From the NCBI GenBank assembly GCA_020725385.1, contig DYFC01000003.1, forward strand, positions 1-12,403: DNA of 12,403 nucleotides, in the 5' to 3' direction. The notes beneath the pieces are model-generated. The model worked only from the letters and a program-made list of their open reading frames with translations. It was not told where the DNA came from and did not search any database. The position numbers were made by a program, and so were the translations under genes. Below are positions 1-12,305 of this stretch, in pieces; position 1 is the first letter of the stretch, and each line of letters begins with the position of its first letter. The stretch is from Nitrospira japonica (GTDB taxonomy: Bacteria > Nitrospirota > Thermodesulfovibrionia > Thermodesulfovibrionales > SM23-35).

Positions 1-459
1 GGTATTGGAACAACATTCAAGATATATCTTCCATTGACTAAAGAAGAAGAGCATTATGCAGGCTCAGAGGTAATGCAGAAGATAGAGGGCGGGACAGAGA
101 CGATACTATTTGCAGAAGATTCTCCGGATGTGAGGGAATCGGCAGTGCATTTACTTGAGGAATTTGGATACAAAGTGATAGAGGCATATGATGGAGAAGA
201 AGCTATAGAGAAGTTCAAATTATATAAAGACCAAATACAACTTGTAATACTTGATTTAGTGATGCCAAAGAAAAATGGGATAGAAGTATATGAGGAGATA
301 AAGAAAATAGTTCCTGAAGTAAAAGTAATTTTCACGAGCGGATATTCAGAAGATGTTATTAGCAAGGGGACAATTTTAAAAGAAGGTTATGAAATAATAC
401 AGAAACCCATTTCTCCAGCACAACTACTTAAGAAATTAAGGGAGATGCTTTCAAATTAA
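1..459 (+). CDS. Hybrid sensor histidine kinase/response regulator, 3' part (5'-truncated by window edge)
   Basis: Frame 1 is open from base 1 and reads GIGTTFKIYLP, the typical end of a HATPase_c domain. A linker and a receiver domain follow (ILFAED, phosphoacceptor in LVILDLVMP, FTSGY, IQKP). The TTG start at 34 in the ORF track is internal. Confidence 0.9.
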   Translation, partial: GIGTTFKIYLPLTKEEEHYAGSEVMQKIEGGTETILFAEDSPDVRESAVHLLEEFGYKVIEAYDGEEAIEKFKLYKDQIQLVILDLVMPKKNGIEVYEEIKKIVPEVKVIFTSGYSEDVISKGTILKEGYEIIQKPISPAQLLKKLREMLSN

Positions 460-481: not shown

Positions 482-1888
482 TTAATGGATTATTTCTGCT
501 GTGAAATAATATAATTCTGCATCTTTCCATGCATCTGAAGGCAGCCCTGCTTTGTAACATATCTGTTTTAAGAAAGTTTCTCTATCCCAGCCAAATTCAA
601 CAGGCACCTGTGGTAAAAGTATTCCGCTATGGCCATATTTTCTAATTACAAGACCATGTTTTCCTATAATTATGTTATTAACATTAGTAACTGGCAATAA
701 TGGCGATAATAGAGTAATTTCTATGTCAAGATCTTTGAGTTCATCTTTTGTAATTGGCAAAAAACGCGGGTCTTCTGAAGAAGCAGAGATTGCGTTCTCA
801 ATTACCGATTTATAAAGCGGCATATATGGCTGAACATGTCCGATACAACCTCTTAATTGTCCATTTTCTTTAATTGTTACAAAAACAGCGCCATCGGTTT
901 TAAACTTCGGATTTTTAATTTCTTTATCTATGACTTTTTTTCTTATAACATATTCCTGGATTGCATCTTTTGCAAGAGCGAGAAGTTCTTTTTTCTCCTC
1001 ATCTGTCAGAGGCTCTTTGAATAAGCCAATAGATGCATAGCCAACGACTCTTTCTTTATCTCCTGTTACATCTCCTGAATTTGCATATTTAAAAGTTGTT
1101 CCAATATTTGCTCCAGCCATTCTTGCAGCTTCAATAGCTATAATTAAAGAATATCCTCCACAAAATTCTCCTTCACCTGTCCTGAGAAGATTTTCTGCAT
1201 CTTTTAAAGAAAGTCTTTCAATTGCCGAGATAACTTTGTTATCCATTTCTTTTGCCTTTTCATAATTATGATAATGTGATAAATCGGTGCTTGCTATGAT
1301 TATTGTTTTTTCATCAAGCATTTCGGATAATTTTCCTGTAAGGTGGGTGAATGTTTTTCTTGTTGGAGAACCTACAAGTATTGGTATTATTGTAAAATCC
1401 TTCAAAACAGTCTGAAGAAAAGGCAATTGCACTTCGAGTGAATGCTCTTTTTCAAATGCTTCTGCGAGAAATTTTACATCTGCCTGTTCATTGAGTAATC
1501 CTTCAGCGAGCTTTTCATTTATGTAAACATCACCAAGAGGGGTTCTAAGAAATCCTTTTGTATAAACAGACGCTCCATTAAAACCTTTGTGATGACTCGG
1601 GCCGATTAAAATTACTTTGTTTATATCTTTTCCCTCAAGTTGTTTATAACCAAAAGCAGCCACCTGACCTGAATAGATATATCCGGCATGAGGAGAGATA
1701 AGAGCTATCATCCTTTCATATGTTTTTACTTTTGTAACTTTTGAAAGAAAATCCTGAATAATTTTCTGGAGACTTTCTTTATCAGCAGGATAGAAGGAAC
1801 CTGCAACTACAGGTTCTTTTCCGGATACTTTGCAAGCAAATAATATCAAAAACAAAGGTAGTAAAAAGAAAATAACATTCTTACCCAT
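482..1888 (-). CDS. amrB: AmmeMemoRadiSam system protein B/A fusion (MEMO1-like domain + AMMECR1 domain), 468 aa, with N-terminal lipoprotein-like signal peptide
   Basis: MEMO motifs EPVVAGSFYP, SPHAGYIYSG, GPSHH, EHSLEVQLPF, ASTDLSHY, SGDV..VVGYA. AMMECR1 motifs AVFVTI..GQLRGCIG, DPRF, GILLPQV (about 482..1012). Start moved from 1945 to ATG 1888 because GGAGGAGGG (1895..1903) lies 6 nt upstream and a hydrophobic leader follows immediately. Confidence 0.92.
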   Translation of the reverse strand: MGKNVIFFLLPLFLILFACKVSGKEPVVAGSFYPADKESLQKIIQDFLSKVTKVKTYERMIALISPHAGYIYSGQVAAFGYKQLEGKDINKVILIGPSHHKGFNGASVYTKGFLRTPLGDVYINEKLAEGLLNEQADVKFLAEAFEKEHSLEVQLPFLQTVLKDFTIIPILVGSPTRKTFTHLTGKLSEMLDEKTIIIASTDLSHYHNYEKAKEMDNKVISAIERLSLKDAENLLRTGEGEFCGGYSLIIAIEAARMAGANIGTTFKYANSGDVTGDKERVVGYASIGLFKEPLTDEEKKELLALAKDAIQEYVIRKKVIDKEIKNPKFKTDGAVFVTIKENGQLRGCIGHVQPYMPLYKSVIENAISASSEDPRFLPITKDELKDLDIEITLLSPLLPVTNVNNIIIGKHGLVIRKYGHSGILLPQVPVEFGWDRETFLKQICYKAGLPSDAWKDAELYYFTAEIIH

Positions 1889-2015
1889 CTTCAACCCTCC
1901 TCCAGAACATTGCTTCATGCAATTGTTCATTTTTCCCCTCTGCATTTGAGTCTTCTTTTAAAGATAAAAAAGACCATAAAAATACAAAAGCTTTTAAAAA
2001 TTCTCTTCTTGTCAT
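1881..2015 (-). CDS. Small 44-aa protein with twin-arginine (Tat) motif, resembling the AmrS N-terminus: MTRREFLKAFVFLWSFLSLKEDSNAEGKNEQLHEAMFWRRVEDG
   Basis: Hand translation; not in the ORF track. The ATG lies 2 nt after the amrS stop with GGAG 6 nt upstream. TRREFLK matches the Tat consensus (S/T)RRxFLK exactly. The stop overlaps the amrB start (ATGGGTAA, 8 nt), so the ORF fills the whole amrS-amrB gap. Confidence 0.8.
   Translation of the reverse strand: MTRREFLKAFVFLWSFLSLKEDSNAEGKNEQLHEAMFWRRVEDG
1895..1903 (-). promoter_or_regulatory. Shine-Dalgarno for amrB/A, embedded in the small ORF
   Basis: GGAGGAGGG 6 nt upstream of ATG 1888. Confidence 0.75.
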
Positions 2016-2017
2016 TT

Positions 2018-2992
2018 TTAACTCCATACCCCGGGCATAGCAGCATTACAAAATCTGCATTTTCCATTTGAAATATTATTCTTAATTATTTGATAACCTG
2101 TTCTTTCAATTAGAATTTTTTTACAGGAGGGACAATAAGTGTTTTCAGCTTCAGTTCTAACATTCCCGATATAAACAAATTTTAAACCTGCATCAATAGC
2201 TGTTTTTCTTGCATTTGTTAGTGTCTCAACAGGAGTTGGCGGAAGGTTTGTAAGTTTATAATGCGGGAAAAACCTTGAGAAATGTAGAGGCACATCAGCA
2301 CCAAGATTTTTTACAATCCATCTACACATTTCATTAATTTTCTTCATATCGTCATTCAAAGTAGGTATAACAAGATTTGTAATTTCAAGCCATATTTTTT
2401 CTTCTTTCAAAACAACCAGAGAATTCAATACAGGTTTGAGGCTTCCATTACAAATCTTATCGTAAAAATCTTCTGTAAAAGCTTTCAGGTCAATGTCAGC
2501 AGCATCCATATATTTACAAAGTTTTCTTAAAGGTTTTTCATTTATATAACCGCATGAATGCATTGTATTTTTAATATTATTTTCTTTTGCTTTAACAGCT
2601 GTATCAAACATATATTCATAGAAAGCTGTAGGCTCTGTGTATGTGTATGCGATGGATTTACAATTATAAGTTTTTGTGTAGCTGATTACTTTATCAGGAG
2701 GCAAATCATAGGTATCGGTCTCTTGGGGTTTTGCCTGTGAAATTTGCCAGTTCTGACAGAATTTGCAACTTAAGACACAACCGGCTGTTGCGATTGAAAA
2801 TGCTTTAGTTCCAGGTAGAAAATGGAAGAAAGGTTTCTTTTCTATCGGGTCAACATGAACAGCGCATGGTTTTCCATATACAATGCTATATAATTTGCCA
2901 TCTTTATTAATTCTTGTCCTGCAACGGCTTGTCTGATTCACATCAAGAACACAACCATTAGGACAAAGTTCGCATTGTACTATCTTCCCCAT
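2018..2992 (-). CDS. amrS: AmmeMemoRadiSam system radical SAM enzyme, 324 aa
   Basis: N-terminal CELCPNGC..CRTR, DPIEKKPFFHFLPG, radical SAM CxxxCxxC (CVLSCKFCQNWQISQ), YTYTEP, HFSRFFPHY, YIGNV, C-terminal CPSC..CRFC. Adjacent to the amrB/A fusion. Confidence 0.93.
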   Translation of the reverse strand: MGKIVQCELCPNGCVLDVNQTSRCRTRINKDGKLYSIVYGKPCAVHVDPIEKKPFFHFLPGTKAFSIATAGCVLSCKFCQNWQISQAKPQETDTYDLPPDKVISYTKTYNCKSIAYTYTEPTAFYEYMFDTAVKAKENNIKNTMHSCGYINEKPLRKLCKYMDAADIDLKAFTEDFYDKICNGSLKPVLNSLVVLKEEKIWLEITNLVIPTLNDDMKKINEMCRWIVKNLGADVPLHFSRFFPHYKLTNLPPTPVETLTNARKTAIDAGLKFVYIGNVRTEAENTYCPSCKKILIERTGYQIIKNNISNGKCRFCNAAMPGVWS

Positions 2993-2998
2993 GTATAT

Positions 2999-3004
2999 AT
3001 TATA
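2999..3004 (-). promoter_or_regulatory. Putative sigma70 -10 box for leaderless amrS transcript
   Basis: TATAAT-atatac-ATG (6-nt spacer); no SD-like sequence before ATG 2992. Confidence 0.55.
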
Positions 3005-3012
3005 TCTTAATT

Positions 3013-5103
3013 CTAATTTGAAAGCCCAAACATTATTAATGCAGAAATTGTTTTCATTAATATAAGCAGAATTATTGTTGTTGTAAAACCAAATAATGGA
3101 ATAAGAATTATTGTTGATGAAATCGCACCTATAAAAGAACCGATAAGTTCAATACCATACAAAGAGCCTCCTTCACCGATAGCTTTTGTTGCAGAAGCAA
3201 ACCAGCTACCTGTAACAATGCCTGTAAATAATGTAATTAAATAGAAAGCCATCCCGTATTCGAAGAAAATTAAAAATATGATACAAACAGCTATTGAAAA
3301 TAAATCAAGAATTAGGAGTAGTTTAGTAGTATCCTTCTTTTCTTTTTGTATTTTTGTGCCAGCCCACAATCCTACCATCAATAGACCGGATAGAAGACCA
3401 ATTTTTTCATAGATATATCCATGTATTGCCTGGTAACCAAGTATTAAACAAATGCTTAGTGCCATACAATAAAAGCCTGTTATAAACATCGAAAAGTATA
3501 TTTTCTGTTTCCTGTTTTTAAAAATGAGTAAGGACAATATTGAAATAATAGTTAAAAAAACAATTAAGTGCCATTTTGTTAATTTATGAATAAATGAAAA
3601 AATTTTTGAACCTTGAATTTCATCCCAAATCATAAGATTATAAAAATATGCTAATGGTCTGGAATCTTTATTGATAGTTTCTATCTTGCCAATTCTTTCT
3701 TTAACATATTTGATGCTAAAATCAGAAAATATATCATCAAATATCCGGCTATGAAAATACCATGTCTTTAAGTTATGTTTAAGGAATCTTTCCGCCAGGA
3801 TAGAAGGTTCTATATCCAAAGGAGAATCAGAAGCAAATATTTTTCCATATTCATGCGATGTAACTTCAACATTGTTAAAAACACTCTTAAGTGTTTTGTA
3901 AATTGTGCCATTTAAAGTTTGAATGCTTTTGCTCATATATCCAAAGGAAGCAGGAAGATTGAGCATAAGCAATCCGTCATGCTTTAAAGTTTTCTTAACT
4001 TCTAAAAAAAATTCTTTTGTGTAAAATCTGTTTAAACCTGCTGTTGATGGTGGAGGGAGATTTAACATTATTAAATCATAAGTTCCTGACACGCTATTTT
4101 TTATAAAAAGCCTGCCATCATCTATTTTAAAAGAAATGCGTGAATCTTTAATCACTGGTTTGTCATCTTCTTTTATTAATTCTTTAGAAATCTCGATAAT
4201 TTTAGGGTCAATTTCAACATAATCTATCTTCATTACAGGATATTTAATTAATTCTCTTAGAATACCGGGTAAGCCTCCAATTAAAAGTATTCTTAATGGT
4301 GATTTATGCATTGTCATTGCAAGATGTGCATTTAATTCTTCTGTCTGAAAATCGGGATATGAAAACTGTAACTGTCCTGAAACAAATAAGCTTTTCTGGT
4401 TATTTCTTTGAATTACCTGAATTTCGCCATATTTTGACTCAATCGATTTTATTAAATTAAATCCGGGCAAATTAATATTTAATGGAGAAAAGTTAGGGAT
4501 GAAAAAATAATATATTGCAGGGAAAAGTAAAAATAATAGAACTAATCTTTTTCTGGAAATATAAACTCCTGCCAATATGCTTATTAAAGAGAGGATGAGT
4601 ATTAGATGAATAGAGCTAAAGTTTCCTGCAATAATAAATGTGAAGGCGCTGCCGGCAATGAAAGCGCCGGCTGCCTCTAATCCATAAATATTTCCTGCGG
4701 CATTTTGTCTTTGAAGGCTTGATACTGCGAATGGGAATTGAAGACCGATTGAAAAGCATAGCGGAAAAAGTACAAAAGCAGTCAATGAAAGAATACCGGG
4801 CAGGGAAATGAATTCACCGGGTGAAAGCCCTAAAAAAAGACGAAGAAATCTTATTCCTATGATAGTTGGAAATGAAATTACGCCGGTGGCAATAAAAGAG
4901 AATGCAAAAGCATTTTTGCATTTTATATATTTTCCTGCCAGACTTCCAAGTCCAACATAAAAGAGCCAGAAAGACAGGGTGATGCCAATGTCGAGTTCAT
5001 TACCAGAGAAAACGGAAAGGAGATTCCTTAGAGCTATAATTTGAAGAAGCATGGAATTGAAGCCCATGAAGATGAAGAAAATGTTTCGAGGTGCAGCGTT
5101 CAT
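3013..5103 (-). CDS. Membrane protein with central spermidine-synthase-like (class I SAM-binding fold) domain between two multi-TM regions, 696 aa
   Basis: Hydrophobic N-terminal ~200 aa (with GNELDIG, IYGLEAAGAFIAG). Soluble core ESKYGEIQV, SGQLQF, ILLIGG, YVEIDP, DDGRLF, NRFYTKEFF, INKDSRP. Hydrophobic C-terminal ~190 aa (LYGIELIGS). Matches the fused membrane/spermidine synthase architecture, but the catalytic motifs are degenerate. Confidence 0.8.
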   Translation of the reverse strand: MNAAPRNIFFIFMGFNSMLLQIIALRNLLSVFSGNELDIGITLSFWLFYVGLGSLAGKYIKCKNAFAFSFIATGVISFPTIIGIRFLRLFLGLSPGEFISLPGILSLTAFVLFPLCFSIGLQFPFAVSSLQRQNAAGNIYGLEAAGAFIAGSAFTFIIAGNFSSIHLILILSLISILAGVYISRKRLVLLFLLFPAIYYFFIPNFSPLNINLPGFNLIKSIESKYGEIQVIQRNNQKSLFVSGQLQFSYPDFQTEELNAHLAMTMHKSPLRILLIGGLPGILRELIKYPVMKIDYVEIDPKIIEISKELIKEDDKPVIKDSRISFKIDDGRLFIKNSVSGTYDLIMLNLPPPSTAGLNRFYTKEFFLEVKKTLKHDGLLMLNLPASFGYMSKSIQTLNGTIYKTLKSVFNNVEVTSHEYGKIFASDSPLDIEPSILAERFLKHNLKTWYFHSRIFDDIFSDFSIKYVKERIGKIETINKDSRPLAYFYNLMIWDEIQGSKIFSFIHKLTKWHLIVFLTIISILSLLIFKNRKQKIYFSMFITGFYCMALSICLILGYQAIHGYIYEKIGLLSGLLMVGLWAGTKIQKEKKDTTKLLLILDLFSIAVCIIFLIFFEYGMAFYLITLFTGIVTGSWFASATKAIGEGGSLYGIELIGSFIGAISSTIILIPLFGFTTTIILLILMKTISALIMFGLSN

Positions 5104-5148: not shown

Positions 5149-5982
5149 TTAATGCATTTTAAATGGGACAGGAATAAATGTTAAGAAAAATATTAAAAGT
5201 GCGAGCCATCCTATAAACCTTCTTTTACGGTCAAGATATGGTTCCCAGTAGAGAACAGGCGGGTGTCTGATTCCAAGTAAAAGCAGAAGCAATGACCAGA
5301 TAATCCAGCCTTCCCAAAGAAAAATGCCAAGCAATGACATTATTAAAATTAAGATAAATGAAATCTGTGCATGTTTTTCTCCCAGTAATGCGTATGCAAT
5401 ATGTCCTCCGTCAAGCTGTCCAACAGGTATTAAATTCATTGATGTAACAAAAAGACCTATCCATCCGGCAAAAGCTACCGGATGGAGTAGTATGTCATGT
5501 TCAGCAGGGGTAACGCCGAGTGTTATTAACGAGAGAAGGTTGAATAGTATAGAATCTCCAAAAACAAGCTCTGGACTCAAATCTTTTATAGATACAATTT
5601 TTGACATGTTTAGTCCAATTATAGAAGCAACAACGGAAACAACAAAACCTGCGATCGGGCCTGATGCCCCTATATCTACAAGAGATTTTCTATTTATTAT
5701 CGGTGACTTCATTTTTATAAATGCTCCAAATGTGCCTATCAAATTTGGAGCGGGTATAAAATAGGGAAGTGTTGCTTTAACACCATGCATTTTTGAAGTA
5801 AAGTAATGGGCAAATTCATGTGTTAACAATATGGTGATGAGACTTGCAGCAAAAGGAATGCCTTTATAAATTTTAGAAGGTTCTGCAAAAATATCTACAC
5901 CTGCTTGCATTGCTCCAACAGCTAAAGTAGATAATACTGTTAGAAAAAATAATATGAGGTGTTTATATGGAATATTTTTCAT
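5149..5982 (-). CDS. Site-2 protease family (peptidase M50) intramembrane zinc metalloprotease, 277 aa
   Basis: HExxH (HEFAH) within a hydrophobic segment, LPYFIP..GTFGAFI, DIGASGPIAG, and NLIPVGQLDGGH supplying the third Zn ligand. Confidence 0.93.
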   Translation of the reverse strand: MKNIPYKHLILFFLTVLSTLAVGAMQAGVDIFAEPSKIYKGIPFAASLITILLTHEFAHYFTSKMHGVKATLPYFIPAPNLIGTFGAFIKMKSPIINRKSLVDIGASGPIAGFVVSVVASIIGLNMSKIVSIKDLSPELVFGDSILFNLLSLITLGVTPAEHDILLHPVAFAGWIGLFVTSMNLIPVGQLDGGHIAYALLGEKHAQISFILILIMSLLGIFLWEGWIIWSLLLLLLGIRHPPVLYWEPYLDRKRRFIGWLALLIFFLTFIPVPFKMH

Positions 5983-5987
5983 AATTT

Positions 5988-5993
5988 ATTATA
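5988..5993 (-). promoter_or_regulatory. Putative -10 box for leaderless M50 protease transcript
   Basis: TATAAT-aaatt-ATG (5-nt spacer); no clear SD. Confidence 0.6.
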
Positions 5994-6105
5994 TTAACTC
6001 GAATAACGCAGTTATTGCTAAAAAATTATTTAAGCCGGAAAGTGCAATTGAAATAATGCAGATGTTGCGAAAAAATTTATTTTTCAATAAGCATTTTGTA
6101 ACTTT

Positions 6106-8763
6106 TCATCCGGGATCCTTTATTCTTTTGAATAATTTCTCTAATTCTACCGCAAAGAACACTATAGAAGAGAGAATGAGTGTTAATATTAATTCATTAA
6201 GTGTTAAAGGTGAAGTTTTAAATACAGGATTTAAAAATGGAACATAAATAGTTGCCATCTGAAGCACAAAAGTTAAAATAAAAGCACCCATTAGAGGTTT
6301 GTTCGAAAATAATCCCAGACTGAATAAAGAAGCTTTTTCTGCCCTTATCGCAAGCACATGACCCATCTGGCTTAAGCATAACACCGTAAAAACCATTGTC
6401 TGCCAGTGGGTTAATCCATTTTTTATTGACCATGCCTGCGTAAAGATTGAGACAAAACCCATTAGCAATCCTACCCATATAATATGAATGCCGAGACCAT
6501 GGGCAAAAATACTTTCTTCAGGATGTCGAGGAGGTCTTTGCATTATTCTTTTTTCAGCGGGTTCTGCTGCAAGCGCAAGACCGGGCAGGCCATCTGTTAC
6601 GAGGTTTATCCAGAGGATATGTACGGGTAAAAGGGGGATAGGTAATCCAAAAAAAGGAGCAAGGGAAATTGTCCATATCTCTCCTGAATTGCTTGTCATT
6701 GTATATTTTATAAATTTACGAATATTATCAAAGATTCTTCTTCCTTCCTTTACTGCTTTGACGATTGTTGCAAAATTATCATCAAGTAATATCATATGAC
6801 TTGCTTCTTTGGAAACATCTGTTCCTGTAATTCCCATCGCAATACCAATATCAGCTCTTTTTAATGCAGGAGCATCATTTACTCCATCTCCTGTCATTGC
6901 AACAAATTGTCCTTTATCCTGCAATGCTCTAATTATCTTAAGTTTTTGTTCCGGCGCCACCCTTGCGTAAACTCTGATATGTTCAACTTTTGATTCAAAT
7001 TCCTCGATTGTAAGCTCTTCAAGCTCTTTACCTGTTATTATTGAATCGGAATTATTATCAATGATGCCCAATCTTCTGGCTATAGCTTGTGCTGTTACAG
7101 GATGATCTCCTGTTATCATTACTGGAATAATACCTGCTGTCTTACACATTGATACTGCTTCTTTTACCTCTTCACGGGGTGGGTCCATCATCGCAGTAAT
7201 GCCAAGAAAAATTAGGTTAGTCTCAATAATATCTGTCTGTATTTTTTCAGGAACAATTTCCATCTTTTTCATTGCAATACCAATTACTCTGAGACCTTCG
7301 GAAGCCATTTGCTCTGCTATTTTCAGAATTTCTTTTCTATTTATTTCTGTTAGACCTGTAGAAGCAAGAACATAAGAAGATTTATCAAGCAATGCTTCAA
7401 CAGCTCCTTTTGTGAAAGAAATGAATTCAGAGGAGGATATTCTGTGGATTGTTGTCATACACTTTCTTTCAGAATCGAATGGAATCTCCGATATTCTTGG
7501 ATAGCTTTGTTCCAGAGTTTTTTTATCGATTCCTGCACTTTTTGCAACTTCATAAAGAGCGATTTCAGTAGGATCGCCGATGATTTTACCTTCTTTATCA
7601 ACCGAAACGTCATTATTCAATACAAGCCCTGCCATTACAAAATCATAAGGAGAACTTTTTTTAAACTGTAAATCAAGTGTAATGTTTTTTCCCGTATTAT
7701 TTGCTCTGAAATCTTCGACTTTTAATATCTTATCATCAACATAAATCTGTTCTACAAACATCTTGTTTAAAGTTAGGGTTCCTGTTTTATCAGAACATAT
7801 ATAGGTCACGGAGCCAAGAGTCTCAACTGCGGGCAATTTTCTAATCAAAGTATTTTGCTTTACGAGTTTCTTTGCTCCGAGGGCAAGTGATATTGTTATA
7901 ACGGCCGGAAGAGCCTCGGGTATAGCGGCTACCGCAAGTGAAATTGATGTAAGAAGCATTAATAACGGAGGTTCTCCTCTGATGATTCCAAGAACAAAAA
8001 CAATTGCACAGATTATTAATACTGCAAACGCAAGTTTTTTCCCGAATTTAATAAGCCTCTTTTGTAAAGGTGTTTTTACTTCTTCCTGCTCCTGAAGCAT
8101 TGTGGCTATTTTGCCGAGCTCTGTTTGCATTCCTGTAGCTGTTACAATTCCTGCACCTCTACCGTAAGTTACAAAAGTACCTTTATACGCCATATTTTTT
8201 CTATCACCAAGAGGAATATTTTCACCGGAAATTGTTTCGGAAACTTTTTCAACAGGAATAGATTCTCCGGTAAGTGCAGCTTCTTCGACCATTAATCTTT
8301 GTGAGTCCGTTAATCTTAAATCAGCAGGAACAATTCGGCCTGCATCAAGAAATACAACGTCACCCGGAACTATTTCTGATGCCGGGATGTTTGTAGCAAC
8401 TCCATCTCTGCTTACTATTGCAAATGGAGCTGCCATTTTCTTTAATGCTGCCATTGCTTTCTCGGCTCTGTATTCCTGAACAAATCCTATTATTGCATTA
8501 AGAACAACGATTACAATAATTGCTATGGTATCTACAGGTTCACCTATAAATCCGGATATAATAGCAGCAGCAATCAGGACAAGAATCATAAAATCCTTGA
8601 ATTGATCAATGAACATCATGAAGACAGTCTTTTTTTTCTTTTCTTTCAGTTCATTGGGGCCATATTGTTCAAGACGTTTCAGTGCATCTTCCGGAGATAT
8701 TCCTTTCTCAGAAGTCCGCAATTCTTTATAAACGCTGTTTATGTCTTTCTGGTGCCAGTTCAT
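6106..8763 (-). CDS. Cation-translocating P-type ATPase, P2A (Ca2+-ATPase-like), 885 aa
   Basis: YGPNEL N-terminus, TGES phosphatase motif, AIPEALP in TM4, phosphorylation site [43 protein letters not shown] in TM6. Confidence 0.95.
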
Positions 8764-8770
8764 TTGATAG

Positions 8771-8776
8771 AGTGTA
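8771..8776 (-). promoter_or_regulatory. Putative -10 box for leaderless P-type ATPase transcript
   Basis: TACACT-ctatcaa-ATG (TANNNT, 7-nt spacer); no SD. Confidence 0.45.
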
Positions 8777-8823
8777 ATTAAATCTGATAATAAATTATTT
8801 GATAAAAATTATAAATTTTGTGG

Positions 8824-9522
8824 TCAATCACCTAAGTATGCTTTTCTGACTTTTTCATTGTTAAGTAAAAATTTGCTTTCTCCCTCAAAAGCAATTCTAC
8901 CATTTTCTATAACATATCCTCTATGTGAAAGTTTTAAAGCAGCCATTGCATTTTGTTCAACAAGAAGAATTGTTACACCTTCTTTATTTATTTCTTTTAT
9001 AGTCATAAATATTTTATTAACAATTATGGGTGCAAGTCCAAGTGATGGTTCATCAAGTAAAAGAAGTTTCGGGAAAGACATTAAAGCTCTGCTAATTGCG
9101 AGCATTTGCTGCTCTCCACCGCTTAATGTTCCACCTATCTGATTTTGTCTTTCTTTGAGAACAGGAAAAAGAGTGAAAATTCTCTTAAGCATTTCATCAA
9201 AATTTCCTTTTTCTGAAAATGCTCCCATCTCAAGATTCTCCCTGACAGTTAATTTCGGGAAGATTCTTCTACCCTCTGGAACCTGACTTATGCCTTTTTC
9301 TACAATCTTATGTGGTGGAGTATTTTTAATGCTTTCGGCCTCAAATAATATTTCTCCTTTGACAGGCCTTAGTATTCCGGATATTGTCATTAATGTTGTA
9401 GATTTCCCGGCCCCATTATTTCCTATAAGACAGACAATTTCACCTTGATTAACTTCTAAATCAATTCCCTTCAGAGCTTCTACATTTCCATAAAAAGTGT
9501 GAACACCTGTAAGTTTTAACAT
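8824..9522 (-). CDS. livF: Branched-chain amino acid ABC transporter ATP-binding protein LivF, 232 aa
   Basis: Walker A GNNGAGKST, VPEGRRIF, signature LSGGEQQMLAI, Walker B LLLDEPSLGLAP, VEQN, KAYLG. Start placed at ATG 9522 (MLKLTGVHTFYG), 7 nt after the livG stop, instead of 9630, which would overlap livG by about 100 nt. Confidence 0.93.
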   Translation of the reverse strand: MLKLTGVHTFYGNVEALKGIDLEVNQGEIVCLIGNNGAGKSTTLMTISGILRPVKGEILFEAESIKNTPPHKIVEKGISQVPEGRRIFPKLTVRENLEMGAFSEKGNFDEMLKRIFTLFPVLKERQNQIGGTLSGGEQQMLAISRALMSFPKLLLLDEPSLGLAPIIVNKIFMTIKEINKEGVTILLVEQNAMAALKLSHRGYVIENGRIAFEGESKFLLNNEKVRKAYLGD

Positions 9523-9529
9523 AATCTGG

Positions 9530-10291
9530 TTAATATTCCTTACCCAAATATGCTTCGATAACGAGTTGATTGTTTTTAATATCTTCAGGAATTCCTTCAG
9601 CAATTTTAACTCCATGATCCATGACAACAATCCACTCTGAAATCCCCATTACAACTTTCATATCGTGTTCTATGAGCAGTACTGTTTTTCCGAGTTTTTT
9701 CATATTTTCAATCAGCTCCATAACCTGTCCAGTTTCCTGTGGATTCATTCCTGCTGTAGGTTCATCAAGCAATATAAGGGATGGTTCCGATGCAAGGGCT
9801 CTTGCAATTTCAAGTTTTCTTTGTGCTCCGTATGGCAAACTACCAGATACAGTATTTGCAAAATCGTAAAGCCCAACAAACTCAAGGTATTCAATAGCTT
9901 TCTCTCTAATTATTCTCTCTTCCCGTCTGAATCTTCCAAGCCCGAAAACAGTATCAACAAGACCTGAAGATGTCCTGCAATGCTGGGCAACAATAATATT
10001 TTCAAGAACAGCCATTTCTTTAAATAACCTGATATTCTGAAATGTCCTTGCTATTCCGAGCTTTGCAATTTCATGGGGTTGAAGATTAACAATGTCTTTA
10101 CCAGAAAAAAATATTGAACCTTTAACAGGTTTGGTCAGTCCTGTAATGCAATTGAAAATTGTGGTTTTCCCTGCGCCATTCGGCCCTATAATGCTCATAA
10201 TCTGATTTTCTTTTACTCTCATATCAAGATCTTCAATTGCTTTTATTCCACCAAAGTGCATTGAAATATTCCTAAATTCTAAGAGATGCAC
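9530..10291 (-). CDS. livG: Branched-chain amino acid ABC transporter ATP-binding protein LivG, 253 aa
   Basis: GPNGAGKTT, IARTFQNIRLF, LPYGAQRKLEIARALA, LLDEPTAGMN, IEHDM, VIEAYLG. GTG start with GGAGG 5 nt upstream, overlapping the end of livM. Confidence 0.93.
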   Translation of the reverse strand: MHLLEFRNISMHFGGIKAIEDLDMRVKENQIMSIIGPNGAGKTTIFNCITGLTKPVKGSIFFSGKDIVNLQPHEIAKLGIARTFQNIRLFKEMAVLENIIVAQHCRTSSGLVDTVFGLGRFRREERIIREKAIEYLEFVGLYDFANTVSGSLPYGAQRKLEIARALASEPSLILLDEPTAGMNPQETGQVMELIENMKKLGKTVLLIEHDMKVVMGISEWIVVMDHGVKIAEGIPEDIKNNQLVIEAYLGKEY

Positions 10292-11399
10292 TTTTACCTC
10301 CGAGAATTCCTTGAGGTCGGAAAATCATAAGAATTACAAGTCCTGCACCAAGTGCGAGCATTCTATAAAGTTGAACTTCACGTAATAATTCTGGAAGAAG
10401 TACCAGTAAAAATGCCCCAACAACAACCCCGCTTATGCTTCCCGAGCCCCCGAGTATAACCATACATAAAATCAATACCGACTCCATAAAGGTAAAACTC
10501 TCGGGAGAAACAAATTGCATCTTTGCAGCAAAAATAGAGCCCGCGAGTCCTGCCCAGAAAGCTCCGAAAGCAAAAGAGTATAACTTATACATTGTAGTAT
10601 TAATTCCTATGGTAGAAGCAGCGATCTCATCTTCCCTTATTGCAATCCATGCGCGGCCAATTCTCGAATTATGTACCCTTTTTGTTATTAAAATTGTAAT
10701 TACTACAAAAAATATCAGTAAATAATAGAAATGCGTTAGCTTATAAAATGTGAATGAAAAAACAACAGGTGTTGATATTCCTGAAATTCCATTTGGCCCT
10801 TTTGTGAGGGTATCCCAGTTATTTAGAATCAACCTCACAATTTCTCCAAACCCCAGTGTTACTATTGCAAGATAATCACCTCTTAATCTTAAGGCCGGTA
10901 TAGCCAGAAGAAAACCTGCGATTGTGGTAAGTAACATAGAAAAAGGTAAAGCTGACCAGAATCCGATGCCAAGCTTTGTATTAAGCAAAGCATATGTATA
11001 AGCTCCAATAGCATAAAAAGCAACAAAACCAAGATTAAGAAGGCCAGCGAATCCAACAACTACATTCAGACCGAGAGCAAGGATAATATAAATGCAAGAA
11101 AGTATAGCAACATCAAGCACATAATCCCTCACAAAAAAAGGCATAACAAGTAAAACAGCGAATAATACATATCTCAAATAGATAGATTCATAAACGGGAG
11201 TGAGCAGATTGGATTCGAAAATATTATAAATTTTGTGCAAAGGGTCTTTAAATATATTCTTATATCTGAGTAATGATTTAAATAGAAGCAGGGTTAGTAG
11301 AATTATTATGAAAGAAATTAAAGCAGCCTTTAATCCCTTAAAGGGAAGAAAAAGTATAGCAAACCAGATAGAAATAATTAATGGGTTGATAAGCGACAT
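10272..11399 (-). CDS. livM: Branched-chain amino acid ABC transporter permease LivM, 375 aa
   Basis: LGLNVVVGFAGLLNLGFVAFYAIGAY, LRLRGDYLAIVTLGFGEI, GRAWIAIREDE, SPESFTF, FRPQGI. Confidence 0.92.
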   Translation of the reverse strand: MSLINPLIISIWFAILFLPFKGLKAALISFIIILLTLLLFKSLLRYKNIFKDPLHKIYNIFESNLLTPVYESIYLRYVLFAVLLVMPFFVRDYVLDVAILSCIYIILALGLNVVVGFAGLLNLGFVAFYAIGAYTYALLNTKLGIGFWSALPFSMLLTTIAGFLLAIPALRLRGDYLAIVTLGFGEIVRLILNNWDTLTKGPNGISGISTPVVFSFTFYKLTHFYYLLIFFVVITILITKRVHNSRIGRAWIAIREDEIAASTIGINTTMYKLYSFAFGAFWAGLAGSIFAAKMQFVSPESFTFMESVLILCMVILGGSGSISGVVVGAFLLVLLPELLREVQLYRMLALGAGLVILMIFRPQGILGGKSASLRI

Positions 11400-11402
11400 A
11401 TT

Positions 11403-12305
11403 TTAAACTTTCTCTAATTCTGCCTTTCTGAAAAGTCCTCCGGGTTTTACAAGTAATATAATTATCAAAATCACAAAAGCATAGGCATCTTTATATTCAC
11501 CCGAGATATAACTTCCACCGAGACTTTCAACGAGTCCGAGGAGCAAGCCACCAACCATTGCACCCCTTATACTTCCTATGCCACCAAGCACAGCAGCGGT
11601 GAAGGCCTTAATGCCCGCAATGTATCCGATGAAATAGTTTACAAGACCGTAATACATAGCAACCATTAGCCCTGCAACCGCTGCAAGTGCAGAACCAATT
11701 ATGAATGTAATTGATATTATGGTATCAATGTTTATTCCTACTAAAGATGCCATTGTCTTATCCTGTGCAACAGCTCTCATTGCTTTTCCAATTTTAGTCT
11801 TCCTAATAAAAATTCTAAGGAATAACATAATCAAAACAGAAACAATGATGATAAAAAACTGAACATATGTCATTCTTATTGACATGAAATAAAATCCTTT
11901 GGCTCCAAATAAATTGGGAAAGACTTTATCGGTTGCTCCCTGTGTTAGCATTACATAATTTTGAAGAAATATTGATACTCCTATTGCGCTTATTAAAGGA
12001 CTCAGACGGGGAGAATTACGCAAAGGTTTATATGCAATTTTCTCTATTGTAAAGCCATAGGCAGAACAAAAAATTATCGAAAGAAGAAAAGTTAGAACCA
12101 GAGATAAAAACATGCTATAGTTTGTTACTCCAAGGACTGTGAGGAATCCAAAGAATATAATTCCGAAATATGCGCCAAGCATATAGATTTCTCCATGAGC
12201 AAAATTAATTAGTTCAAGAATCCCGTAAACCATCGAATAACCTAATGCGATAAGCGCATATACACTGCCGAGGGTAATACCATTAATTAATTGTTGTAAA
12301 AGCAT
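11403..12305 (-). CDS. livH: Branched-chain amino acid ABC transporter permease LivH, 300 aa
   Basis: QQLINGITLGSVYALIALGYSMVYGIL..INFAHGE, GKAMRAVAQD, KAFTAAVLGGIGS, KPGGLF. Confidence 0.94.
   Translation of the reverse strand: MLLQQLINGITLGSVYALIALGYSMVYGILELINFAHGEIYMLGAYFGIIFFGFLTVLGVTNYSMFLSLVLTFLLSIIFCSAYGFTIEKIAYKPLRNSPRLSPLISAIGVSIFLQNYVMLTQGATDKVFPNLFGAKGFYFMSIRMTYVQFFIIIVSVLIMLFLRIFIRKTKIGKAMRAVAQDKTMASLVGINIDTIISITFIIGSALAAVAGLMVAMYYGLVNYFIGYIAGIKAFTAAVLGGIGSIRGAMVGGLLLGLVESLGGSYISGEYKDAYAFVILIIILLVKPGGLFRKAELEKV

What the first reader, a model, noticed from the sequence alone, without database searches (positions are those of the whole stretch)
1881..2992. AmrS appears split and permuted: its missing N-terminus (Tat leader + EAxF motif) is a separate 44-aa ORF downstream of the catalytic gene
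Seen: amrS starts abruptly at MGKIVQCELCP, and the in-frame sequence upstream has no start codon and no AmrS-like residues. Directly after its stop is a coupled ORF MTRREFLK-AFVFLWSFLSL-KEDSNAEGKNEQLHEAMFWRRVEDG*. Family knowledge, from memory: AmrS proteins usually begin with about KEAxFYxxLxDGxVxCxLCP, and some carry a Tat leader in front. Joining the peptide to the enzyme gives LHEAMFWRRVEDG|KIVQCELCP, which restores that pattern with no gap or excess. Inference: the peptide supplies the N-terminal strand in trans and could carry folded, Fe-S-loaded AmrS through Tat by hitchhiking, as hydrogenase small subunits do for large subunits. Alternatives are a paralogous accessory or substrate peptide, a relic of duplication, or misassembly.
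Basis: partly seen in the sequence, partly recalled or inferred. Interest (0 to 1): 0.85.

Follow-up and report, generated by a model that had tools for sequence, protein, structure and literature searches.

The report
Detached Tat leader for split AmrS
A radical SAM enzyme gene has lost its first ~47 codons, and those codons (an export signal plus the enzyme's first strand) survive as a separate, conserved 44-residue gene just downstream, which probably docks onto the enzyme and takes it across the membrane.

Summary
All genes lie on the minus strand: N-truncated amrS (2992..2018), a 44-aa ORF (2015..1881), then a lipoprotein-type amrB-amrA fusion (1888..482). The ORF is a real gene. It occurs in 35 of 61 related genomes, which are exactly the 35 that carry this truncated AmrS type. 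It is under purifying selection and forms 77 short-protein clusters in metagenomes. A profile of it aligns end to end with the first ~47 residues of full-length, Tat-leader-bearing AmrS homologues (hhalign 95.5%, E 1.4e-8). The truncated enzyme resumes two residues later. A co-fold puts the peptide tail against AmrS residues 1-9 and 27-40 (score 0.92, best control 0.00). TatC is present. The partner AmrB-AmrA carries an export signal, and a second, leaderless Amr set lies elsewhere in the genome. The best reading is a split, order-swapped gene whose detached leader binds the enzyme by strand complementation and probably exports it by Tat hitchhiking. Export itself is inferred, not shown. This is a new variant of known kinds (split genes, Tat hitchhiking).

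The parts
2018..2992 (-). N-truncated AmrS (AmmeMemoRadiSam radical SAM enzyme), 324 aa. It starts 6 residues before the first conserved Cys and has no leader and no KEAxFY segment.
   Evidence: TIGR04337 378 bits, profile 12-333/349. All 119 readable sequences among the 120 closest database relatives start the same way, and 118 of the 120 are 324 aa. Aligned to fused homologue P0202, enzyme residues 5-323 match P0202 residues 49-369 at 47% identity.
1881..2015 (-). 44-aa ORF that is the detached AmrS N-terminus: a twin-arginine motif (TRREFLK), a short hydrophobic region, an S-N-A/E possible signal-peptidase site, a linker, and the tail LHEAMFWRRVEDG, which stands for the enzyme's missing first strand.
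   Evidence: Conserved in 35 of 61 relatives and 21 of 301 genomes sampled across the phylum. 77 short-protein clusters. hhalign to Tat-AmrS N-termini gives 95.5%, E 1.4e-8. Median pS is 0.80 against pN 0.26. Co-fold interface is peptide residues 32-43.
482..1888 (-). AmrB (Memo-like) fused to AmrA (AMMECR1), with an N-terminal lipoprotein-type signal (MGKNVIFFLLPLFLILFAC). Its start overlaps the stop of the small ORF (ATGGGTAA).
   Evidence: TIGR04336 274 bits and TIGR04335 177 bits. A Cys lies 5-8 residues before the AmrB domain, after a hydrophobic run, in 30 of 30 loci. The start at 1888 is chosen from the GGAGGAGGG upstream and from homologues' starts.
3013..5103 (-). Polytopic membrane protein with a spermidine-synthase-like domain, 20 nt upstream of amrS. 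It is a conserved neighbour of exported-type AmrS.
   Evidence: PF01564 84 bits. NF037959 (fused MFS/spermidine synthase) scores 38.4 bits, just under its cut-off of 40. Homologues lie upstream of truncated amrS in 17 other loci and beside the fused Tat-AmrS in L045 and L046.
2999..3004 (-). TATAAT box 6 nt before the amrS ATG, with no Shine-Dalgarno between them. It may be the promoter of a leaderless amrS transcript.
   Evidence: A TA[TAC]AAT box 5-6 nt before the ATG in 22 of 24 loci; one of the two misses has no upstream sequence. The general promoter scan found no more sites than chance and did not list this one. This is a lead only.

Best explanation
An ancestral exported AmrS (Tat leader, linker, KEAxFY strand, catalytic body) was split. 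The catalytic body is now made from its own start codon without a leader. The first ~47 codons persist as a separate 38-47-residue gene, placed after amrS and directly before amrB-amrA. The peptide's C-terminal tail (consensus KEAMFWRRLD) binds AmrS as the missing first beta-strand, next to AmrS residues 5-9 and 34-36. The peptide's twin-arginine signal then takes the folded, Fe-S-loaded enzyme through TatABC as a hitchhiker. On the outer side it meets the Sec-exported AmrB-AmrA. Shown here: the split, the homology, the strict co-occurrence, purifying selection and the reversed gene order. Supported by modelling only: the binding mode. Inferred from context: the export, any cleavage at the A-x-A-like site, and the reason for the split. 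The confidence given (0.62) is for the whole model including export; for the split plus strand complementation alone I would give about 0.85.
For: Homology and tiling: a profile of 30 peptides aligns over 46 columns with columns 4-50 of a profile of 46 Tat-leader AmrS proteins (95.5%, E 1.4e-8). The window peptide alone matches P0264 residues 3-52 (E 2e-5). The window enzyme's residue 5 aligns with P0202 residue 49, while the peptide ends at residue 47.

Conservation: the peptide is present in 35 of 61 relatives. In 33 it is whole, in one it is split by an in-frame insert, and in one it is cut by a contig end. These are the same 35 genomes that hold an AmrS at least 55% identical to the window's. 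The other 26 have only copies at or below 47% identity. These genomes are kin, so the counts are not independent.

Gene order: amrS-peptide-amrBA is seen in 27 of 29 first loci and in families from other classes.

Coding: median pS is 0.80 against pN 0.26 over 435 pairs, and the invariant Ala uses all four third-position bases.

Database: 77 of the 80 profile hits are proteins of 38-104 aa that end at the match. No ~370-aa fused form carries this leader.

Co-fold: score 0.92 in all three runs, best of 3 controls 0.00. That mark was reached by 58 of 80 solved complexes and 2 of 110 mismatched pairs. The runs share at least 62% of their contacts and the partner's pLDDT is at least 51. The interface is peptide 32-43 against AmrS 1-9, 27-40, 125-129 and 151-154, not the CxxxCxxC site. 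No AmrS structure is in the PDB. In the AF2 model of the fused homologue the equivalent segments are strands 41-43 and 49-51.

Export context: TatC is present. AmrB-AmrA has an export signal in 30 of 30 loci. The genome also has a separate leaderless AmrS, AmrB and AmrA. Fused Tat-AmrS exists in the same family and in several phyla. The split clade is one branch (SH-aLRT 98) and is sister to the leader-bearing clade.
Against: No experiment or expression data exists; no RNA run held the stretch. The window's own peptide matches neither Pfam TAT_signal nor TIGR01409. Only 6 of 30 and 3 of 30 family members do, so 'Tat signal' rests on the motif and on homology to Tat-leader AmrS.

The co-fold could partly reflect what the model learned from full-length AmrS sequences; halves of split genes tend to pass. 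My own alignments were used, so the calibration counts hold only roughly.

A radical SAM enzyme outside the cytoplasm needs SAM and a reductant there, and nothing here explains their supply.

In 2 of 35 genomes (G038, G052) amrS is not next to the peptide.

The tree was a quick search rooted on three paralogues. The split clade is sister to, not nested in, the leader-bearing clade, so a Tat-bearing ancestor is inferred from the peptide and not from the tree.
Confidence: 0.62

Rival explanations
1. Strand complementation without export. The peptide inserts as a membrane anchor, or stays on TatBC, and tethers AmrS at the cytoplasmic face. There AmrS has SAM and reductant, and acts on something handed across the membrane to AmrB-AmrA.
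For: The homology, co-occurrence and co-fold evidence fits this reading equally well. It removes the problem of SAM supply in the periplasm. Basic residues flank the hydrophobic stretch on both sides in the consensus, so topology is not settled by charge. A polytopic membrane protein with a SAM-type fold is a conserved neighbour.
Against: The hydrophobic stretch is only ~11-13 residues and rich in Gly. That is typical of a signal h-region and short for a stable anchor (my reading). A signal-type insertion would put the tail outside, not inside. Fused relatives carry Tat leaders, many followed by a Cys in a lipobox-like position, which implies real export of the whole enzyme. The partner AmrB-AmrA is exported.
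Confidence: 0.17
2. The peptide is an independent exported small protein that serves AmrB-AmrA as partner, substrate or mimic of the AmrS N-terminus. The truncated AmrS works alone in the cytoplasm.
For: The peptide gene is always directly upstream of amrBA, and stays with it in the two genomes where amrS lies elsewhere. Its stop overlaps the amrBA start in the window.
Against: It co-occurs strictly with the truncated AmrS type, in 35 genomes with both and 26 with neither. The enzyme lacks exactly the segment the peptide carries, a segment kept in 109 of 117 fused relatives. The co-fold with AmrS passes with controls at 0.00, and the contact is away from the radical SAM site. A cytoplasmic AmrS would be separated by the membrane from its exported partners, although a full leaderless set already exists.
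Confidence: 0.08
3. The ORF is a decaying relic of a duplication, or an assembly artefact, and has no function.
For: Permutation by duplication and loss would leave such a fragment for a time. Partial duplications of the N-terminal module do occur in this family (P0251, P0252, P0282, P0315).
Against: The frame is intact in 33 of 35 genomes across several families and classes. Substitutions are far fewer at non-synonymous sites. There are 77 clusters at 50% identity. Independent contigs from other studies bridge the junctions.
Confidence: 0.02

Closest known systems
Tat 'hitchhiker' export (hydrogenase small/large subunits, DmsAB, PaoABC)
   Same: The twin-arginine signal sits on only one partner, and a signal-less, cofactor-loaded partner would be co-exported as a folded complex. 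Basis: Introduction passage of PMC10924467 and the abstract of PMC4273604 in the listing.
   Different: In the known cases the signal-bearing partner is a full folded subunit with its own function. Here the mature part is about 17-20 residues, and it is a strand cut out of the cargo enzyme itself.
Dedicated hitchhiker subunit of FAD-dependent dehydrogenase complexes (Burkholderia cepacia GDH gamma subunit)
   Same: A small protein whose main known role is to carry the Tat signal for a catalytic subunit that contains an Fe-S cluster, and to help it fold. Basis: passages of PMC6719666.
   Different: The gamma subunit has 168 aa, of which 47 are signal and 121 form a five-helix mature protein unrelated to its cargo. 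The peptide here has 38-47 aa in all and is homologous to the cargo's own N-terminus.
Full-length exported AmrS (Tat- or other-leader AmrS, about 370-385 aa)
   Same: The same leader, linker, KEAxFY strand and catalytic body, in one chain. It is found in the same bacterial family (L045, L046) and in several phyla, and is also linked to a membrane spermidine-synthase-like gene.
   Different: It is one gene and one polypeptide. Many have a Cys after the leader in a lipobox-like position. The peptides have no Cys.
Split or circularly permuted genes arising by duplication and partial loss; engineered split-protein strand complementation (recalled from general knowledge, no call)
   Same: Two genes tile one ancestral protein, with the N-terminal piece encoded after the C-terminal piece. 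The small piece is a single strand that would complete the fold in trans.
   Different: The small piece also carries the targeting signal, so the split separates 'address' from 'cargo'. No remnant of the presumed duplication was found here.

Membership tests
AmmeMemoRadiSam radical SAM enzyme (TIGR04337) | Whole-protein score above the curated cut-off | tested here: met
   378.2 bits against a cut-off of 220.
AmmeMemoRadiSam radical SAM enzyme (TIGR04337) | Radical SAM CxxxCxxC motif and the N-terminal Cys cluster | tested here: met
   C72, C76 and C79, and also C7, C10, C14 and C24, are invariant in the 48-row alignment. Pfam Radical_SAM scores 67.9 bits.
AmmeMemoRadiSam radical SAM enzyme (TIGR04337) | Full-length match including the N-terminal KEAxFY segment (profile positions 1-11) | tested here: not met
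   The match starts at profile position 12, or 11 in six frames. The segment is encoded by the separate ORF 2015..1881. The enzyme is therefore a member in two pieces.
AmmeMemoRadiSam radical SAM enzyme (TIGR04337) | Genomic association with AmrA and AmrB | tested here: met
   The AmrB-AmrA fusion starts 130 nt after the amrS stop. The same order is seen in 27 of 29 loci.
Twin-arginine (Tat) signal peptide | S/T-R-R-x-F-L-K motif near the N-terminus (motif recalled from general knowledge) | tested here: met
   The window peptide has T-R-R-E-F-L-K at residues 2-8. RR is invariant in 30 of 30 and F6 is nearly invariant. 74 of the 77 short database hits have RR-x-hydrophobic-hydrophobic.
Twin-arginine (Tat) signal peptide | Match to curated Tat-signal models (Pfam PF10518, TIGR01409) | tested here: inconclusive
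   The window's own peptide has no match. 6 of 30 members match PF10518 (best 5.1e-5) and 3 of 30 match TIGR01409 (best 8.6e-6). These are very short models.
Twin-arginine (Tat) signal peptide | Tat translocase encoded in the genome | tested here: met
   TatC at 237 bits on contig C65. TatA/B were not searched.
Twin-arginine (Tat) signal peptide | Tat-dependent export of the bearer | not testable with these tools
   This needs fractionation or reporter work with RR-to-KK and tatC mutants.
Tat hitchhiker pair | Signal on one partner only, and stable complex formed before export | tested here: inconclusive
   AmrS has no leader. The co-fold scores 0.92 against a best control of 0.00, which supports binding but does not show it.
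Split/permuted gene | The two products tile a single-chain homologue without overlap, in swapped gene order | tested here: met
   The peptide covers P0202 residues 1-47 and the enzyme covers residues 49-369, with residues 2-4 unaligned at the seam. The peptide gene lies 3' of amrS.
Bacterial lipoprotein (AmrB-AmrA fusion) | Signal peptide ending in a lipobox Cys | tested here: met
   By pattern only: L-F-A-C in the window, and a Cys after a hydrophobic run in 30 of 30 loci. No dedicated predictor was run. Two distant loci (L080, L081) have a signal without Cys.

The most novel reading that the evidence does not exclude
A free-standing gene for a Tat signal peptide. This ~40-residue 'detachable address label' has as its only mature part one beta-strand excised from its cargo. 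A radical SAM enzyme would be exported only after it has folded well enough to capture the strand. It would also mean that a whole AmmeMemoRadiSam set (AmrS, AmrB, AmrA) works outside the cytoplasm, so the system's substrate cannot be only cytoplasmic RNA, and radical SAM chemistry takes place in the periplasm.
Probability: 0.55. Interest if true: 0.85.

Novelty: new variant of a known kind. Interest (0 to 1): 0.76.

Why it matters
Tat hitchhiking is known only with full subunits as carriers. A natural carrier reduced to a signal peptide plus one strand of the cargo would be the minimal form of that mechanism. It would also be a natural counterpart of engineered split-protein and hitchhiker selection systems, and it offers a built-in folding check before export.

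The finding also points to an extracytoplasmic version of the AmmeMemoRadiSam system, whose function is still unknown. In this version the leader sits on AmrS or on a detached peptide, AmrB-AmrA carries an export signal, and a membrane protein with a SAM-type fold is a conserved neighbour. A 2007 prediction, read here as one passage of PMC2034487, proposed an RNA base modification for AMMECR1. An exported set points instead, at least for this branch, to an envelope or extracellular substrate.

There is also a practical point. These 40-residue genes are named only 'hypothetical protein' where they are named at all, and they match no curated family other than weak Tat-signal models. As a result the truncated AmrS is annotated as if complete.

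Tried and rejected
In-frame relic upstream of amrS. Several relatives read F-Y-N-K-x-M just before the start, at the spacing of the ancestral F-Y, and the HMM sometimes extended across the stop. I rejected this reading. The conserved element is a TATAAT box 5-6 nt before the ATG, and it falls in different frames in different loci.

Fused form carrying this leader. None was found among the 80 hits of the profile search. The three long hits are repetitive proteins with 11-13 partial stretches. Two long 'members' of peptide clusters (P0325, P0330) are unrelated proteins, so this is clustering noise.

Promoter and terminator scan. Promoter-like sites were no more frequent than chance (20 found against 21.7 expected) and no terminator-like site was found. 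I use this only as weak support for one transcription unit.

Expression. No RNA holder was listed for the stretch, and all laid runs were DNA contigs, so nothing can be said on transcription or translation.

Literature. Searches for AmmeMemoRadiSam, for radical SAM / twin-arginine / hitchhiker, and for AMMECR1 with Memo and radical SAM found no description of a split AmrS or of a stand-alone Tat leader gene. Burroughs et al. 2019 (J Biol Chem 294:10211), cited in PMC7159879 as describing Memo-AMMECR1 systems, is not held. It and its supplements may describe exported versions.

The separate profile alignments answer the same question. I ran no signal-peptide predictor, no AF2 model of the truncated enzyme alone, and no fold search.
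Full report
What is in the window. The relevant genes lie on the minus strand with at most 20 nt between neighbours and no terminator-like site between 5300 and 400. There are four of them.
- A polytopic membrane protein with a spermidine-synthase-like domain (5103..3013).
- amrS (2992..2018, 324 aa).
- A small ORF (2015..1881, 44 aa).
- An amrB-amrA fusion. I start it at the ATG at 1888, which overlaps the small ORF's stop as ATGGGTAA and follows GGAGGAGGG.

AmrS is a clear member of TIGR04337 (378 bits, cut-off 220), but it matches only from profile position 12. Its ATG is the first start codon after the upstream in-frame stop. A six-frame HMM search finds no N-terminal match upstream. The small ORF matches no Pfam or NCBIfam family. 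The join has a few surplus residues rather than none. The window has 17 residues from the EA motif to the first Cys, against 13-14 in fused homologues (my count).

The small ORF is a real, conserved gene. A search with the peptide in 61 related genomes gave hits in 32. In the 29 fetched loci the order amrS-peptide-amrBA held in 27. One locus is cut by a contig end and one lacks amrS nearby. The 30 peptides are 38-47 aa long. Their consensus is M-x-R-R-D-F-L-R, then a Gly-containing hydrophobic stretch, K-K-V-K-A-E, a short basic linker, and the ending L-K-E-A-M-F-W-R-R-L-D. R3, R4, A35 and W38 are invariant.

A profile of these peptides found the gene in 35 of the 61 genomes: whole in 33, split by an in-frame insert in G024, and cut by a contig end in G017. 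The other weak hits cover only the leader part inside long frames, and I read them as ordinary signal peptides. Searching the same genomes with the window's AmrS gives a bimodal result. Thirty-five genomes hold a copy at 55-100% identity; the next best copies are at 50, 49 and 47%. The two sets of 35 genomes are identical, and the other 26 genomes have neither feature. The genomes are kin, so this is not a statistical test. No genome among those searched pairs the small ORF with a full-length copy of this AmrS type.

Codon comparison shows purifying selection. Median synonymous difference is 0.80 and non-synonymous 0.26 over 435 pairs. Close pairs give dN/dS of 0.05-0.59, and the invariant Ala uses all four third-position bases.

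In a library of 1.84 billion representatives, the profile has 80 hits at E up to 0.001. Seventy-seven are proteins of 38-104 aa that end where the match ends. Three are long repetitive proteins matched in many partial stretches. Where a source names these proteins, the name is 'hypothetical protein'. Species representatives with the gene are all Nitrospirota/Thermodesulfovibrionales-labelled MAGs (22 loci). In an even sample of the phylum, 21 of 301 genomes have it. These include families of other classes that show the same gene order and the same truncated AmrS.

Misassembly is excluded by this recurrence. It is also excluded by contigs from other public runs that bridge both junctions: X4 covers 1809-3300 with 41 differences, X1 covers 1878-2048, and X2 covers 1775-1972.

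The peptide is the detached N-terminus of an exported AmrS. Genomes of this group hold 1-4 AmrS paralogues. Two relatives (G011, G033) have a third type: a 371-aa AmrS that begins with an RR leader, a Cys in a lipobox-like position and a linker, followed by the canonical E-A-R-F-Y...C-x-L-C start. Its 120 best database relatives are mostly 370-385 aa long and come from several phyla according to the sources' names. By my patterns, 66 of the 120 have an RR leader and most of the rest have another hydrophobic leader. Among the 117 with a readable N-terminus, 109 have the EA-x-aromatic-aromatic motif 13-14 residues before the first Cys. In contrast, none of the 119 readable relatives of the window's AmrS has the motif, and in all of them the first Cys lies within 8 residues of the start.

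A profile-profile comparison aligns the 30 peptides over 46 columns with columns 4-50 of 46 Tat-leader AmrS proteins (probability 95.5%, E 1.4e-8). That stretch runs from the RR motif to the residues just before the first Cys. The window's enzyme aligns with the fused protein from residue 49 onward (47% identity). So the two gene products tile the single-chain homologue. The window's peptide alone also matches a fused protein (E 2e-5).

A quick maximum-likelihood tree of the catalytic bodies, rooted on three leaderless paralogues, puts all 17 split-type sequences on one branch (SH-aLRT 98). That branch is sister to the leader-bearing clade. This fits a single old split. The Tat-bearing state of the ancestor is inferred from the peptide, not from the tree.

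How the pieces probably work. A co-fold of the enzyme (48-row alignment) with the peptide (30-row alignment) scored 0.92 in all three runs, against 0.00 for the best of three controls. That mark was reached by 58 of 80 solved complexes and 2 of 110 mismatched pairs. The runs share at least 62% of their contacts, and the partner's pLDDT is at least 51. Only the tail is placed with confidence.

The confident interface is peptide residues 32-43 against enzyme residues 1-9, 27-40, 125-129 and 151-154. The closest pairs are peptide 37-39 with enzyme 5-9, and peptide 33-35 with enzyme 34-36. The radical SAM cysteines (72, 76, 79) are not in the interface, which speaks against a substrate-like binding.

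No AmrS structure exists in the PDB; only remote PFL activase matches were found. The pass is therefore not a memory of a solved complex. It may still reflect what the model knows of full-length AmrS sequences, and my own alignments make the calibration counts approximate. In an AF2 model of the fused homologue (mean pLDDT 79.7), the leader is a helix (residues 4-20), the linker is disordered (21-31), and the segments equivalent to the peptide tail and the enzyme's start are neighbouring strands (41-43 and 49-51). Together these results support strand complementation in trans.

Why export is the likely purpose.
- The peptide's N-terminus matches the twin-arginine consensus. Its hydrophobic stretch is short and Gly-rich, and its c-region ends in an A-x-A-like site (V-K-A in the consensus, S-N-A in the window) (my reading).
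- TatC is encoded in the genome.
- AmrB-AmrA, the partner, has a signal peptide with a Cys 5-8 residues before the AmrB domain in 30 of 30 loci. Two distant loci have a signal without Cys.
- The genome also holds a second, dispersed set of leaderless AmrS, AmrB and AmrA. The clustered set therefore looks like an extracytoplasmic duplicate.
- In that set the only Tat-type signal is on the peptide.
- Fused Tat-AmrS relatives show that export of this enzyme type is a common solution.

Weak points remain. The window's own peptide matches neither curated Tat-signal model, and only 6 of 30 and 3 of 30 family members do. Nothing explains how SAM and electrons would reach an exported radical SAM enzyme. 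No expression or localisation data exist. I put about 0.85 on 'split gene whose peptide binds AmrS as its first strand' and about 0.6-0.65 on Tat hitchhiking. The overall confidence given for the full model, export included, is 0.62.

Origin of the swapped order. The N-terminal piece lies after the catalytic gene in 33 of 35 genomes. In G038 and G052 the truncated amrS sits elsewhere, next to a deaminase-like gene (my reading of the ORF translations, no family search), while the peptide stays directly before amrBA. A tandem duplication of a Tat-amrS gene upstream of amrBA would give this order if the first copy lost its 5' part and the second copy lost its body. Partial duplications of the N-terminal module do occur in fused relatives (P0251, P0252, P0282, P0315). 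I found no remnant that proves this path. The truncated gene seems to have gained its own expression signal: a TATAAT box 5-6 nt before the ATG in 22 of 24 loci, with no Shine-Dalgarno. This suggests a leaderless transcript, but it is a pattern only.

Comparison with what is known. Tat hitchhiking with full subunits is established; I read a passage of PMC10924467 and the abstract of PMC4273604 in the listing. The closest case is the dedicated hitchhiker gamma subunit of Burkholderia FAD-glucose dehydrogenase. It has 168 aa, of which 47 are signal and 121 form a helical mature protein unrelated to its cargo (passages of PMC6719666). The present carrier is four times smaller, and its mature part is a strand of the cargo itself. 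My searches of the held literature found no description of it. I therefore rate this a new variant of known kinds rather than categorically new.

Noticed in passing
window 2999-3004 (minus strand), and L006-L034: A TATAAT-like box lies 5-6 nt before the amrS ATG in 22 of 24 loci, with no Shine-Dalgarno. The truncated gene may be translated from a leaderless mRNA. In some loci the box reads in frame as F-Y-N, which mimics the lost N-terminus by chance.
   Followed up: partly
window 3013-5103 (minus strand); L045, L046: A polytopic membrane protein with a spermidine-synthase-like (SAM-type) domain is a conserved neighbour of exported-type AmrS. It lies upstream of the split amrS in 17 other loci and directly after the fused Tat-AmrS in two genomes. 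Whether it supplies or handles a SAM-derived compound at the membrane is open.
   Followed up: partly
own genome G000: C19:4659-5657, C47:35099-35890, C30:4959-5447: A second AmrS, AmrB and AmrA are present. Each is leaderless and unlinked to the others. The genome therefore has a cytoplasmic and an exported-type AmmeMemoRadiSam set.
   Followed up: partly
L037 1190-1438 (G044): An 82-aa ORF directly upstream of the truncated amrS has a hydrophobic helix and ends in a tail resembling the peptide's (H-K-A-K-Y-W-R-R-L-K-Q). The normal peptide gene also lies downstream at 2433-2555. It could be a second strand donor or chance. It was seen in one genome only.
   Followed up: no
L035 (G024:C91:6823-7044): The peptide gene carries an in-frame insert of about 33 codons between the leader and the tail, and the frame stays open.
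   Followed up: no
L041/L042 (G038) and L038/L052 (G052): In two deep-branching genomes the truncated amrS is unlinked, lying next to genes that I read from their translations as a dCMP-deaminase-like and a diadenylate-cyclase-like gene (no family search was run). The peptide remains directly before amrB-amrA.
   Followed up: partly
P0251, P0252, P0282, P0315 (relatives of fused AmrS): Some leader-bearing AmrS proteins of 427-444 aa carry a second copy of the N-terminal Cys-rich module before the KEAMFY start. Partial tandem duplication therefore occurs in this family.
   Followed up: no
window 2056: One contig of run X4 (depth about 5) has an extra G behind 2056, near the 3' end of amrS. It may be an error or a strain difference that changes the last residues.
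   Followed up: no
L080, L081 (family f22): In these distant members the AmrB-AmrA signal lacks the lipobox Cys, so the partner may be soluble or anchored differently there.
   Followed up: no
window 1-459 and 5149-12305: The other ORFs read, by eye only, as a response-regulator receiver domain, a membrane metalloprotease-like protein, a P-type ATPase and a branched-chain amino-acid ABC transporter. They were not tested with family searches.
   Followed up: no
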